Translations under genes and position numbers: made by a program
Origin: Chrysomallon squamiferum
Lineage: Eukaryota > Animalia > Mollusca
Assembly (NCBI GenBank): GCA_012295275.1
Contig: CM022677.1
Coordinates: 20,274,001-20,338,000, forward strand
DNA: 64,000 bases
Direction: 5' to 3'
Part shown: piece by piece, positions 361 through 61,193 of the stretch
How positions within the stretch are numbered: the stretch's first letter is position 1
Layout of the letters: the number at the start of each line of letters is the position of its first letter
The notes under the pieces: model-generated
What the model saw: only the letters and a program-made list of their open reading frames with translations
Database searches by the model: none
What the model was told of the DNA's origin: nothing

Positions 361-453
361 CACATTTGGCTCCAGACCACTGTTCAGTGCACGTGCACCG
401 AGTACACTCGGGGTCAGAGTGACCGCCATGCTTACAGTTCAGTTTGCAACGTT
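361..453 (-). CDS. Gene A EGF-like exon 10 (last in window; gene continues past left edge)
   Basis: tttacag|...|gtatgt, 93 bp, phase 1-1: ERCKLNCKHGGHSDPECTRCTCTEQWSGAKC. Confidence 0.88.
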
Positions 454-1153
454 CTGTAAAATGAAGTCACAACACAGTCAGATGACGTAAGAGAGTGGAA
501 ACCTTCTTTTGTAAGAGTAACACTTATTGTTATTAACTGATAGCAAGATTTATTTATTATTTTTGTTATTATTTTTGTTTATATCTATATGTATTGGAAC
601 ATTCCTATATATATAGGACATTTTTTCCATATGCGGAAAAGCATACAAAATATTTTGTTCATAAAACAGATCTCTCTGTCTGTTTCTGTCTGTCTGTCTG
701 TCTGTCTGTCTGTCTCTCTCTCTCTCTCTCTCTCTCTCTCTCTCTCTCTCTCTCTCTCTCTCTCTCTCTCTCTCTCTCTCTCTCTCTCTCTCTCTCTCTC
801 TCTCTCTCTCTCTCATGACTGTCTGAGCCCAAACTAATTTTGTATTGCTGACGAAACAGAACAAGAAAAAAAGAGGTAAGAAAAATACTGTATTGTTCAT
901 TAACATTCCTTTTCAGACCACGGACGTACATTATATTCACAAATGATTCCTGACATTAGGCAAACATCACGTCGAAGCTGTAGGCAAAACTACAGGCTGA
1001 GCCAGTGATATTCAGTGGTAGTACAACAAAAGTAAAATGGATGTGATATACTGAAGTATATTGAACCAGCTGTATTGTAAGTTTATCAGTGGAATACTTC
1101 AGATATTGTACAGGTATATATATATATATATATATATAAAAAGTAAAACGTAC

Positions 1154-1246
1154 CACACCGTTTTCCACCCCAGTTTCCTTTACACATGCAGAAATTACAG
1201 GCAGAGTTATGTTTACCACCATGGGCACAAGTCATTTCACAGGTTT
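1154..1246 (-). CDS. Gene A EGF-like exon 9
   Basis: ttacag|...|gtacgt, 93 bp: ETCEMTCAHGGKHNSACNFCMCKGNWGGKRC. Confidence 0.88.
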
Positions 1247-1790
1247 CTGTAATATCAGTATTGTATATTATATATATATATACACACACCCAGTTCACAT
1301 GCACATTCATACATATAGAAATATATACCCATACACACAGCAATACATACACAAACTCATAACCACACATACACATATAGAAACATACACCCATACCTAC
1401 AGAAATACACATATACATTCATATCCACACGCACACACACACACAGAAACAAATACATATTAACATATACACACTCAAAAACTGTGTATACCCAGATACA
1501 TATAGACAGAAAACACACACGCACACACACACACAAAAACACATTCAAAGACTAACACACACACACACAGACATATATACCCTCATATGCGAACAGACAT
1601 TCATACACACAGACACACAGATACACACACAAACAAATACACATTAACAGACACAAACACAGACATACACACATACAGACAGACTCAAACACGTTTTGTT
1701 TGTGATATAATTAATTTCAAACACTGCACTTTTTTTTTATAACCAAAATAAACAACAACAACAACAACAACAACATCGTCAGTGTCGTAC

Positions 1791-1880
1791 CACAGCGTGG
1801 GCCGGTCCAGCCTCCCAGACATATACAGTGGTCACAAGCATCGTTAGCGAAACCTTTGTTCAAGCAGTAGTTACATGTGT
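1791..1880 (-). CDS. Gene A EGF-like exon 8
   Basis: ttgcag|...|gtacga, 90 bp: DTCNYCLNKGFANDACDHCICLGGWTGPRC. Confidence 0.88.
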
Positions 1881-2728
1881 CTGCAATAAAACACACTAAT
1901 AAGTGAGTGAGTCACTGAGTGAATGACTGAAAATGAAAGAATCTTTGAGTGAATGACTGAATGAATGAAAATGGTTGAAATGGGTGAGTAAATGATTGAA
2001 ATAAATGGATTAAAATGAAAGAATGAGTGAGTGAATGAATAAAAGAATGAATAAAAATGATTGAAATAAATGGGCGAGTAAATGATTGAAAAAATGAATT
2101 AAAATGAAAGAATGAGTGAGTGAATGAATGAATGAATCAATGAAAATGAAAGAATGGGTGAACGAATGAGTGAATAAATGAACTGAAATGAAAAAATGAG
2201 TGAGAGAATAAATGAATTAAGATGTAAGAATGAATGAATAAAAAGGAAAGAAAAAGAATGAATAAATAAATTAATGAAAATGAAAGGATTAAATGAATGA
2301 CAGTGTGAATGAATGAAGAATAAATAAACGAGTAAATTAATGCATGAGAATGAAAATAAAAAAATGAGTAGAATGAATAAATAAACAAACAAAACAAGTT
2401 AAAAAAAGAACGAAAAGTAATTTAGATGAATTAAATAAATAAAACTGAAAGGGGTGGATGAACGACAGAATGAATGAAACTGACCAAAGAAATGAAAACG
2501 AATAAACGAAGAAAAACGAACGAAAGAGTGAATGAATAAACACATGAACCAAAGGCAAAAAAAAAAAAAAAAAAAAATAATAATAATAATAATAATAATA
2601 AAAAAAAAAAAAAAAAAAAAAAAAAATAAAAAAATTACGCCATCTATATCTATACCTTCTTTCATGCATGAGTGACTGCTCAAGATGGCGGACTACATTT
2701 TTTTTTTTTGATTTGTGCAAAAACTCAC

Positions 2729-2821
2729 CACAGAATGTTCCCTTCCAGTGACCCTTACAATCGCAGTGTTTGCACATAAAGTTAGGCCTGGCTCCATTTT
2801 TGCATGTAATGTTACATACAT
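2729..2821 (-). CDS. Gene A EGF-like exon 7
   Basis: ttctag|...|gtgagt, 93 bp: xVCNITCKNGARPNFMCKHCDCKGHWKGTFC. Confidence 0.88.
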
Positions 2822-59010: not shown

Positions 59011-60074
59011 AGTAATCAAAACAGTTTTGATATTTTAGTAAAAGCTGCATGTTTAGGGTTGTTTTCCTTCAACAGGATTTTCTAGAAGTTGATTTAGTGC
59101 ACTTTGAAAACTCACTGGAATTTTCTGTTAGTGTTTGTGAATGAAAGTATAAAGTTCATTATTTCTGTTTTGTGAGTCACATGTTAAATAGAAAAATATC
59201 CTCCTCTCAGTTTTCTGCATTAGATAATGTGAATGCTAGACATAATGTGTGTATATGTATATGTGTATGTATGTATGTTTTAGTATATATATGTTTCTGA
59301 GGTGTGTGTGTTTGGATGTGTCTATAAATTGTGTGTGTATATGTATGTGTGTGTTAGTGTATATATGTTTCTGAGGTGTGTGTGTTTGGATGTGTCTATA
59401 AATTGTATGTGAATGTGTGTGTATGAATGTGTGTTTTAGTGTATATATGTTTCTGAGGTTTGGGTGTGCAAGTGTTCCTGTATCTCTATATGTGTATGTG
59501 ATTAGTTTTTTTTTTCATTGATGACTTTGTTTAATTGTTTATTACAGAATTTTTGCTGAACAGATACACATTAACAAAAGAATGTAAACTACATCAAGTC
59601 TATCACCTGTTTTTTCAACCTGGCATGTTTCTTTGTTTTTATTTAGACAGAAAGACTCTTCTATGTCTGTCATCAGAGATACAAATTAACAAGATAATTT
59701 ATTTAATTTTATATATGTATACTAGTGTGTATTTGTCTCATTGTAATATTACATTGCTGGATATTAGTCTTTACAGATGTAAATATATAGCACTAAAAAA
59801 TTAACTACAGCAGTTGGTAAGTTTATATTGTTGTTACAAGTCTACAACAGTAATTTGGAGTTTTCTACTGACTCCTTTATTTATATTCTTAATATGATTA
59901 TAAATAAATAAAATAAATAAATAAATAAATAAATAAATATTGTTGCTCACCATTAAAATGATTATAAATAAATAAATAAATAAATAAGTAAATAAATCAA
60001 ACAAACAAACAAATAAATAAATACTGTTGCTCACCACGAATTTTGACAAAGGTTTTAACCCTTTTTGTGATCTT

Positions 60075-60365
60075 AGCAAGATATCTTGTCACACTAGAAG
60101 ACTGCAGTTGTAAGATATCTCAACATGTTAGAATACAGCCGTTGGCAAGATGTCATAACATGCTACAATACTGCCATTAATAAGATATCTCAACATGCTA
60201 GAAGGCTGCCATTAATAAGATATCTCGACATTGTAGAAGTCTGCCATTGGTAAGATATCTCAACATGAAACAAGAATGCCACTGAAAGACATCTTGGCAT
60301 GCTACAAGACTGCCACTTTCAACATATCTCAGACGAGTGCAGTTGCAAGCTATCTTGACATAGCA
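60075..60365. repeat. Degenerate ~35 bp minisatellite (aagatatctcaacatgctagaagactgccattggt)
   Basis: About 8 diverged copies. Confidence 0.8.
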
Positions 60366-60552
60366 CACTATTTACTACAGGGGTGAGGATAGATAATTTC
60401 CTCCAGAACACACAGCACTGGGGAGTAGGAATGCAATAGGGTTAATACATAAATGCAGATAACAGTGATTATATACAATAAAGACTGTGCTTGTCCTTTA
60501 TTTATAGTCTTTGTTCAGGAATATACTGGCAAATTCTTCAATTTGATTTACA

Positions 60553-60638
60553 TCATTGTACTTTGACTTGTCAACATGATGGTAGACCTGATTCTCAATG
60601 TAGTGGATGTACTGGAAAGTGGGTTGGAAATATATGAG
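60553..60638 (+). pseudogene. Decayed EGF-like pseudo-exon of gene C
   Basis: HCTLTCQHDGRPDSQCSGCTGKWVGNI* : final Cys TGT->TGA, one CxxC step missing, acceptor AG lost (tttacat), donor gtaatt retained. Confidence 0.72.
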
Positions 60639-61099
60639 GTAATTATTTTTTTTTATGTGATGCATTATTTTCCTCTATTTAAGTATTATTTTCCTCTATT
60701 TAAGTATTTGTGGCTAGTTTCAGTTTTTAATCACATTCAATACGACCACTTCTTTCTGGTTAATATTTCTGTTAGTTTTAGTTTATCTAGATGAGCACTT
60801 TATGTTAATTATGCATGAATGAATGCATGGTGGTTGTGCATAGGTATGAAAGCTAAAATAATATTGATACTAAATGTTCATGTATATATAACGAAGCTGT
60901 GTACGCACACACACACACACATGTGCATGTATGTATACAAACACATTAAAAGTTATTTATTTGGTTCAGAGTATTGTACTTTGTGTTGTGAACATAGAGA
61001 CATATTAACGAACTGTATATTTGTTTTATTCAGAAAATTGTAATTTGTGTTGTCAACATGTATACATATTAACAAACTCTGTATTTGTTTTATTCACAG

Positions 61100-61193
61100 T
61101 ATTGTACTTTGCACTGTCAACATGGTGGAACAGCTGGTTGTCTGTGTGATTGAAGAAATAGAAGCACTGGATGCTGGGGTGGAAACACGAATG
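61100..61193 (+). pseudogene. Decayed EGF-like pseudo-exon of gene C, preceded by two partial acceptor+start copies (60960-61060)
   Basis: YCTLHCQHGGTAGCLCD*RNRSTGCWGGNTN|gtaata, in-frame stop and lost cysteines. Confidence 0.7.

What the first reader, a model, noticed from the sequence alone, without database searches (positions are those of the whole stretch)
361..61193. Tandem cluster of three LRR-(EGF)n cell-surface receptor genes with an unusual architecture
Seen: three paralogs, each with a single-exon signal peptide/LRRNT/LRR/LRRCT head followed by >=10, 17 and 21 single-module EGF-like exons. Gene B ends in a TM helix and a ~26 aa tail. Known: Slit has LRR+EGF but is secreted, with 4 LRR blocks, LamG and a cystine knot. 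Vasorin has LRR + 1 EGF + FN3. TLRs have intron-poor LRR heads but need a TIR domain. MEGF10/Draper/SREC have EGF stalks but no LRR head. I do not recognise this combination as a named family. Inference: a lineage-expanded, fast-evolving recognition receptor family (immune pattern recognition, phagocytosis or cell adhesion), with a divergent LRR sensor on a variable-length rigid stalk. The ORF track misses it almost entirely because the exons are about 31 codons.
Basis: partly seen in the sequence, partly recalled or inferred. Interest (0 to 1): 0.92.

Follow-up and report, generated by a model that had tools for sequence, protein, structure and literature searches.

The report
Mollusc LRR receptors on EGF stalks
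Three neighbouring genes, likely from a snail-type mollusc, join a leucine-rich-repeat binding head to long chains of EGF-like modules; they likely arose when a lipid-anchored surface protein gained a stalk and a tail predicted to recruit uptake machinery, a combination we found described nowhere.

Summary
Three genes each have a one-exon LRR head followed by phase 1-1 EGF-like exons: 9, 16 and 19 intact, plus broken ones. An RNA contig shows gene A's head spliced to its first EGF exon across a GC-AG intron. B ends in a TM helix and a short tail with NPxF and a PDZ-type end, but has two frameshifts as assembled; C's 3' end is decayed with no TM exon; A runs off the window. The heads fall (99/99) among gastropod LRR-only proteins with GPI-like ends (Haliotis, Patella, Aplysia). 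No LRR-plus-module fusion turned up in our protein searches or nine paper searches. Best reading: a GPI-type LRR gene gained an EGF stalk and TM tail by exon shuffling, likely giving long-reach capture-and-uptake receptors. The scan had not noted this architecture before.

The parts
12323..12340 (-). Gene A, 3' end of a 5' untranslated exon (GT donor at 12322)
   Evidence: RNA contig piece; donor
10143..11643 (-). Gene A head exon: signal peptide, N-cap, about 15 LRRs, C-cap; ATG at 11604, 487 codons; GC donor at 10142
361..9094 (-). Gene A EGF-like exons, 9 intact: 9094-8999, 8458-8366, 7782-7690, 7128-7039, 4989-4900, 2821-2729, 1880-1791, 1246-1154, 453-361; the gene runs off the window
   Evidence: first exon joined to the head in RNA
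5735..5816 (-). Gene A broken fifth module beside a 34-bp minisatellite made of its own acceptor and first codons (ends approximate)
34394..34562 (-). Gene B 5' untranslated exon (far end taken from the 168-nt loose end)
31829..33332 (-). Gene B head exon; ATG at 33286; one-base frameshift in a G run near 32120-32125; GT donor at 31828
17067..30807 (-). Gene B EGF-like exons, 16 intact: 30807-30715, 30037-29945, 27340-27248, 26113-26024, 25550-25458, 24228-24133, 23557-23468, 22940-22851, 22284-22192, 21273-21181, 20607-20515, 20030-19935, 19368-19276, 18221-18129, 17715-17623, 17159-17067
28368..28467 (-). Gene B third module, 100 nt, out of frame as assembled (TG run at its 5' end); skippable in frame
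16098..16233 (-). Gene B juxtamembrane and transmembrane exon (21-residue hydropathy peak 2.65)
   Evidence: not seen in RNA
15517..15595 (-). Gene B last exon: cytoplasmic tail ending GLANPGFDEQSTTI (NPxF; PDZ-type end), TAA 15519-15517, AATAAA/ATTAAA-type signal at 15416
   Evidence: not seen in RNA
39833..40843 (+). Gene C head exon, shortened (316 aa, about 7 motif-matching LRRs); ATG at 39898 or 39919; GT donor at 40844
42476..56891 (+). Gene C EGF-like exons, 19 intact: 42476-42574, 42873-42971, 43808-43897, 44086-44166, 45026-45115, 45540-45638, 46909-47001, 47823-47912, 48429-48521, 48815-48916, about 50125-50316 (Gly-rich; acceptor uncertain), 51701-51796, 52406-52498, 53075-53170, 54208-54342 (Gly-rich), 54972-55064, 55490-55585, 56034-56129, 56796-56891
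53561..53626 (+). Gene C half module: 66 nt, in frame, four cysteines, AG..GT
57219..61193 (+). Gene C decayed 3' modules: 57219-57315 (97 nt), about 60550-60638 (no acceptor, stop), 60970-61193 (tandem partial copies, stop); no TM exon found up to 64000

Best explanation
These are three spliced mollusc genes whose LRR head likely derives from a GPI-anchored LRR protein family and which likely act as long-reach capture-and-uptake receptors: the head would bind a protein or particle surface, the EGF-like chain would hold it tens of nanometres from the membrane, and B's NPxF tail is predicted to recruit a PTB adaptor for internalisation. Shown: exon anatomy; head-to-EGF splice for A; transcription of A and B; kinship of the heads. 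Inferred: a phase-1 donor just after the C-cap's last cysteine replaced the GPI-signal tail with symmetric 1-1 EGF exons and a TM/tail cassette; stalk length changes by in-frame gain, loss or skipping of exons; uptake through a CED-6/GULP-like adaptor; C is a secreted or decaying copy. The ligand is unknown.
For: Splice: a 1542-nt RNA contig covers 10143-11640 and its 23-nt loose end matches once in the window, at the first 23 nt of the first EGF exon, in frame. Fold: head model pLDDT 91.4, a typical extracellular LRR horseshoe; module model pLDDT 89.7 with only EGF-bearing structures among its weak matches, Pfam EGF_2 for 22 of 45 modules at E<=0.1, Atlas EGF clusters at 0.90. Origin: heads group 99/99 with Haliotis XP_071106136.1 and three unnamed proteins, inside a 100/100 group whose five named rows are all gastropod; 17 of 18 full-length relatives examined end in a short hydrophobic tail within 10 residues of the C-terminus. 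All three heads end at the same phase-1 position. Selection: 9 of 10 RNA-DNA differences synonymous against 27% expected, p 6.5e-5. Tail: NPxF is the motif by which stabilin-1, an EGF-repeat engulfment receptor, binds GULP1 (PMC6723754, passages).
Against: No functional data; NPxF is four residues seen in one gene, and its conservation could not be checked. The loose end is 23 nt, under the tool's 31-letter mark for a bridge, in one contig of one run. B's head-to-EGF, EGF-to-TM and tail junctions were not seen in RNA, and B has two frameshifts as assembled. GPI anchoring of the relatives rests on hydropathy only, and their exon structure is unknown, so the intron may predate the stalk. That A, B and C form one clade is neither shown nor rejected (p-AU 0.457). 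The head's relatives look like adhesion-type proteins, which favours rival 1.
Confidence: 0.45

Rival explanations
1. Long-reach cell-adhesion or cell-spacing molecules (chaoptin/connectin-like): heads bind partners on a facing cell, stalk length sets the gap, and the PDZ-type end and NPxF serve anchoring and turnover.
For: Heads derive from LRR-only proteins with GPI-like ends, one annotated 'chaoptin' in Aplysia; fly chaoptin is an adhesion molecule (PMC2235866, passages); low, mostly synonymous variation; PDZ-type end (consensus recalled).
Against: True insect chaoptins match only over parts of the head, and the Aplysia name is automatic. An EGF stalk with an NPxF tail recalls scavenger receptors.
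Confidence: 0.3
2. TIR-less microbial sensors that signal through a separate TIR-only partner, as Hydra HyLRR-2 does with HyTRR-1.
For: LRR ectodomain, TM, no TIR; HyLRR-2 senses flagellin (PMC6043800, PMC13207855, passages). The RNA runs are labelled metatranscriptomic. Snail resistance loci hold clusters of single-pass EGF-type genes (PMC13712769, passages).
Against: No sign of diversifying selection; heads group with GPI-type proteins, not TLRs (no TLR row was put in the tree); no TIR partner seen in the window.
Confidence: 0.12
3. A decaying cluster: B and C are recent pseudogenes and only A is functional.
For: Frameshifts in B's head and third module; C's decayed 3' end and missing TM exon. 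RNA matched the assembly without gaps over about 2.5 kb.
Against: B is transcribed and 5'-spliced; 5 of 5 differences are synonymous; GC3 is 0.87 before and 0.85 after the break in the paralogue-matching frame (0.52 and 0.36 in the others); 16 modules, TM and tail are intact. The breaks lie in G, TG and CC runs, where long-read assemblies slip (recalled).
Confidence: 0.13

Closest known systems
Gastropod LRR-only proteins with GPI-like ends (Haliotis XP_071106136.1 and XP_046362296.2, Patella KAK6170528.1, Babylonia XP_076461505.1, Aplysia XP_005100877.1 'chaoptin')
   Same: End-to-end homologous head, 28-35% identity, same caps and internal cysteines; tree support 99/99 and 100/100
   Different: They end shortly after the C-cap in a hydrophobic tail; none has the EGF-like module
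Stabilin-1 and CED-1/Draper/MEGF10/Jedi engulfment receptors
   Same: EGF-like arrays, single TM, NPxF/Y tail that binds GULP/CED-6 (PMC6723754, passages)
   Different: No LRR head; FAS1/Link or EMI domains instead (EMI and 8-Cys repeats recalled); B's tail has no YxxL/ITAM and is about 26 aa; modules here are 6-Cys
Vasorin (recalled architecture: LRR-EGF-FN3-TM)
   Same: LRR head, EGF, single TM
   Different: One EGF plus FN3, vertebrate; no vasorin among the named hits listed
Slit (recalled architecture)
   Same: LRR and EGF in one chain
   Different: Secreted, four LRR blocks, LamG and cystine knot; none of these here
Hydra HyLRR-1/2; Amphimedon LRR-Ig-EGF protein
   Same: TM LRR receptor without TIR (HyLRR); LRR with EGF (sponge protein; PMC6043800, passages). 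A few EGF domains in HyLRR are recalled, not found in the passages read
   Different: No long EGF array reported in what was read; homology untested
Biomphalaria PTC1/PTC2/LG5R clusters of single-pass receptors
   Same: Tandem gastropod cluster of single-pass genes, EGF signatures, small tails, gene fragments (PMC13712769, passages)
   Different: No LRR mentioned ('LRR' 0 occurrences in the main text); highly polymorphic there, little polymorphism seen here

Membership tests
Gastropod GPI-type LRR-only family (head) | End-to-end homology and clade membership of the LRR domain | tested here: met
   E 2.3e-81, 35% over residues 10-471; 99/99 clade
Gastropod GPI-type LRR-only family (whole protein) | Ends in a GPI-signal-like tail after the C-cap | tested here: not met
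   Head A splices to an EGF exon; B and C have donors at the same place
EGF-like domain | Six cysteines, EGF fold | tested here: met
   Spacing 3-9-2-1-8 in 24 of 45; best TM 0.75-0.77, rmsd 1.5-1.6 A to WIF1 EGF but E>1; 13 of 48,161 chains at Z 2.0-3.0, all EGF-bearing; disulfide pairing itself not read out
Calcium-binding EGF | C-x-D/N-x4-Y/F-x-C motif | tested here: not met
   0 of 45 modules
Toll-like receptor | Cytoplasmic TIR domain | tested here: not met
   B's tail is 29 residues after the hydropathy peak; A's end lies outside the window
Slit | Four LRR blocks, LamG, cystine knot, secreted | tested here: not met
   One LRR block per gene; B has a TM segment
Vasorin | Single EGF followed by FN3 | tested here: not met
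   16 modules lead directly to the TM exon in B
CED-1/Draper/MEGF10 | N-terminal EMI domain | tested here: not met
   N-terminus is LRR
CED-1/Draper/MEGF10/stabilin (works like) | NPxY/F motif in the tail | tested here: met
   NPGF in B's last exon
CED-1/Draper/MEGF10/stabilin (works like) | Binds a GULP/CED-6 PTB domain and drives engulfment | not testable with these tools
   needs an assay
HyLRR-type TIR-less sensor | Homology to HyLRR and a TIR-only partner | not tested
   no HyLRR sequence was fetched

The most novel reading that the evidence does not exclude
An undescribed class of mollusc receptor born by exon shuffling: a GPI-anchored LRR protein was mounted on a 16-20-module EGF stalk with an NPxF/PDZ tail, turning a passive surface protein into an engulfment receptor that reaches through the glycocalyx to capture microbes or symbionts, with reach tuned by exon skipping and a secreted, half-head decoy (gene C).
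Probability: 0.25. Interest if true: 0.75.

Novelty: new variant of a known kind. Interest (0 to 1): 0.52.

Why it matters
It is a traceable case of a new receptor architecture arising by exon shuffling: the likely parent family (gastropod GPI-type LRR proteins) and the splice point are both visible. Type I LRR proteins with extracellular domains other than Ig/FN3 are rare in model animals (0, 0, 1, 1 in worm, fly, mouse, human; PMC2235866 Table 2, passage). If the tail drives uptake, it links LRR recognition to the CED-6/GULP route in molluscs, where recognition receptors are poorly known. Automatic annotation would miss the 30-codon exons, so the family may be hidden in other genomes.

Tried and rejected
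No whole genome is held, so A's 3' end and other family members could not be examined. Word-indexed searches with head A returned generic LRR proteins (822 and 99 hits); the informative relatives came from the exhaustive search (best 150 of 26,290). 0 of 364 fetched proteins matched the module profile. A module-profile search of 554-2000-aa proteins gave 1 hit among 6311 candidates, a EukProt protein with similar tandem modules and no LRR; the tool rates absence as weak evidence. Metagenome loci (8 of 185 pattern matches) were distant LRR genes without modules. PDB sequence search with the module profile: 2 hits at E 0.43-0.46. Atlas search with the head gave generic LRR clusters. Homodimer prediction for head A: no verdict. 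Recent in-gene amplification of modules rejected: within-gene minus between-gene identity 0.005, p 0.20, except C12-19 (0.34 against 0.23). Enrichment of minisatellites at exon borders not shown (2 of 17 against 3.6 expected, p 0.90; the filter dropped several arrays). Rfam: 0 hits. General repeat search was swamped by microsatellites. Papers searched for passages without bearing: PMC7308585, PMC8260672, PMC5094078, PMC9813724, PMC7654579. No supplements were opened; those of PMC2235866 and mollusc genome papers may list such architectures.
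Full report
Setting. The window is 32% G+C and dense in microsatellites. No whole genome is held. The best end-to-end relatives with names are gastropod proteins, so the animal is inferred to be a mollusc, most likely a gastropod; at 28-35% identity this is not certain.

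Anatomy. Genes A and B lie in tandem on the minus strand, C on the plus strand, head to head with B. Each coding head is one exon with Pfam LRR_8 hits. A scan for AG..GT phase 1-1 exons and a profile search gave 44 intact six-cysteine exons: A 9, B 16, C 19. Controls: no hit of 15 bits in 20 of 20 local shuffles; nothing above 2.0 bits on the wrong strand. B continues to a TM exon and a last exon whose tail carries NPGF and ends in STTI; with X at the head break and the third module skipped it is 1051 aa. No credible TM exon was found for C between 56900 and 64000: the hydrophobic candidates were simple repeats. CpG depletion over C (o/e 0.21) ends near 61.4 kb (1.03 beyond), which suggests, by inference from gene-body methylation, that C ends there.

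RNA. Four runs were offered. In X1 a 1542-nt contig covers head A from 11640 to 10143 with 5 differences and no gaps, begins in an upstream exon, and has a 23-nt loose end that occurs once in the window: the first 23 nt of the first EGF exon, in frame across a GC-AG intron. An X2 contig also stops at 10143. For B, four X1 contigs cover parts of the head and one is spliced to an exon at 34394; none covers the frameshift or the donor, and X2 and X4 laid nothing. Of 10 RNA-DNA differences 9 are synonymous (A 4 of 5, B 5 of 5; p 6.5e-5 against 27% expected; B's contigs have depth 2-4). GC3 is unchanged across B's break in the paralogue-matching frame. So B's break is an assembly slip or a very recent null allele; the data do not decide.

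Folds. Head A models as a confident LRR solenoid with caps (pLDDT 91.4); its structural matches are generic (LGR4/5, LINGO1, TLR8/9). The modules have an unusual spacing (3-9-2-1-8 in 24 of 45) and mostly fall under Pfam's cut-off (1 of 13 passed; 22 of 45 hit EGF_2 at E<=0.1), but the model (pLDDT 89.7) matches only EGF-bearing structures, weakly as expected for 30 residues, and the Atlas agrees. None has the calcium-binding motif. At a recalled 2.5-3 nm a module, B's stalk would span about 40-48 nm if extended.

Origin. The exhaustive search found a family of about 510-580-aa proteins that match the head end to end; 5 of the 10 looked up carry names, all gastropod, and a two-unit Lingula protein is more distant. 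17 of 18 examined end in a short hydrophobic tail, GPI-signal-like by hydropathy; the 18th (P0213) reads from the last C-cap cysteine into intron-like repeats, as the window's genes do, so it may have the same donor. In a 30-row tree the three heads sit in a 7-row clade (99/99) with Haliotis XP_071106136.1, P0138, P0210 and P0213. One origin for A, B, C is neither shown nor rejected (p-AU 0.457, 12 rows), and P0213 pairs with a GPI-type row, so repeated gain or loss of the stalk is open. Modules are old: 24-28% identity outside cysteines, no closer within genes than between (p 0.20), apart from a younger C12-19 set.

Is the combination known? 0 of 364 fetched proteins carry the module; a module-profile search found one non-LRR EukProt protein. 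These searches are insensitive to small-exon genes that annotation misses. Nine paper searches found no description of an LRR-(EGF)n-TM mollusc family; most subscription papers are outside the library. Read as passages only: PMC2235866 (eLRR census; type I 'LRR_Other' 0/0/1/1; chaoptin as adhesion molecule), PMC6723754 (stabilin-1 NPxF binds GULP1), PMC6043800 and PMC13207855 (HyLRR-2; sponge LRR-Ig-EGF protein), PMC13712769 (snail single-pass clusters). Slit, vasorin, MEGF10 architectures and the PDZ consensus are recalled. Earlier scan notes describe mollusc EGF-receptor clusters without LRR heads; none matches this sequence.

Mechanism. Shown: spliced, transcribed genes under purifying selection with LRR heads on EGF-like arrays; one with TM and NPxF. 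Inferred: birth by shuffling of symmetric exons onto a GPI-type LRR gene; in-frame variation of stalk length; capture and PTB-adaptor-linked uptake (0.45). Rivals: adhesion/spacing (0.30), decay of B and C (0.13), TIR-less sensor (0.12). Against an immune arms race: low, synonymous variation and no special divergence of the concave face.

Verdict. Real, apparently undescribed architecture built from familiar parts, with an identifiable parent family; function untested. New variant of a known kind; interest 0.52.

Noticed in passing
window 6020-6354, 24206-25024, 21745-22194, 47453-47842, 60954-61125: Five minisatellites whose unit is a splice site plus the adjoining exon bases of an EGF-like exon (four acceptors, one donor), giving arrays of decoy splice sites. 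No positional enrichment was shown.
   Followed up: partly
window 10142-10135: Gene A's head uses a GC donor; read-through would stop four codons later and give a secreted LRR-only protein. Only the spliced form was seen in RNA.
   Followed up: partly
window 39898-61400 against 10143-11604 and 31829-33286: Gene C is CpG-depleted (o/e 0.2-0.3, GC3 0.30) while heads A and B are CpG-rich (1.0-1.15, GC3 0.74-0.87): paralogues likely under different methylation and expression regimes.
   Followed up: partly
window 50125-50227 and 54208-54252: Two glycine-rich linkers in C's stalk, one from a 21-bp coding tandem repeat; possible hinges.
   Followed up: no
window 35591-37839 and 62795: A dispersed repeat core occurs 8 times on both strands (0 expected by chance), and 39520-39730 resembles 63080-63300 by eye: probably non-autonomous mobile elements.
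   Followed up: partly
window 59777-59816: A 40-nt stretch with good acceptor and donor on the plus strand inside C's decayed end; in phase 1 it stops after four codons. Possibly a terminal or unrelated exon.
   Followed up: no
P0138 and P0147; P0123 and P0361: The GPI-type relatives also seem clustered: two ENA proteins share a longest-contig length of 342,586 and two Haliotis accessions are neighbours.
   Followed up: no
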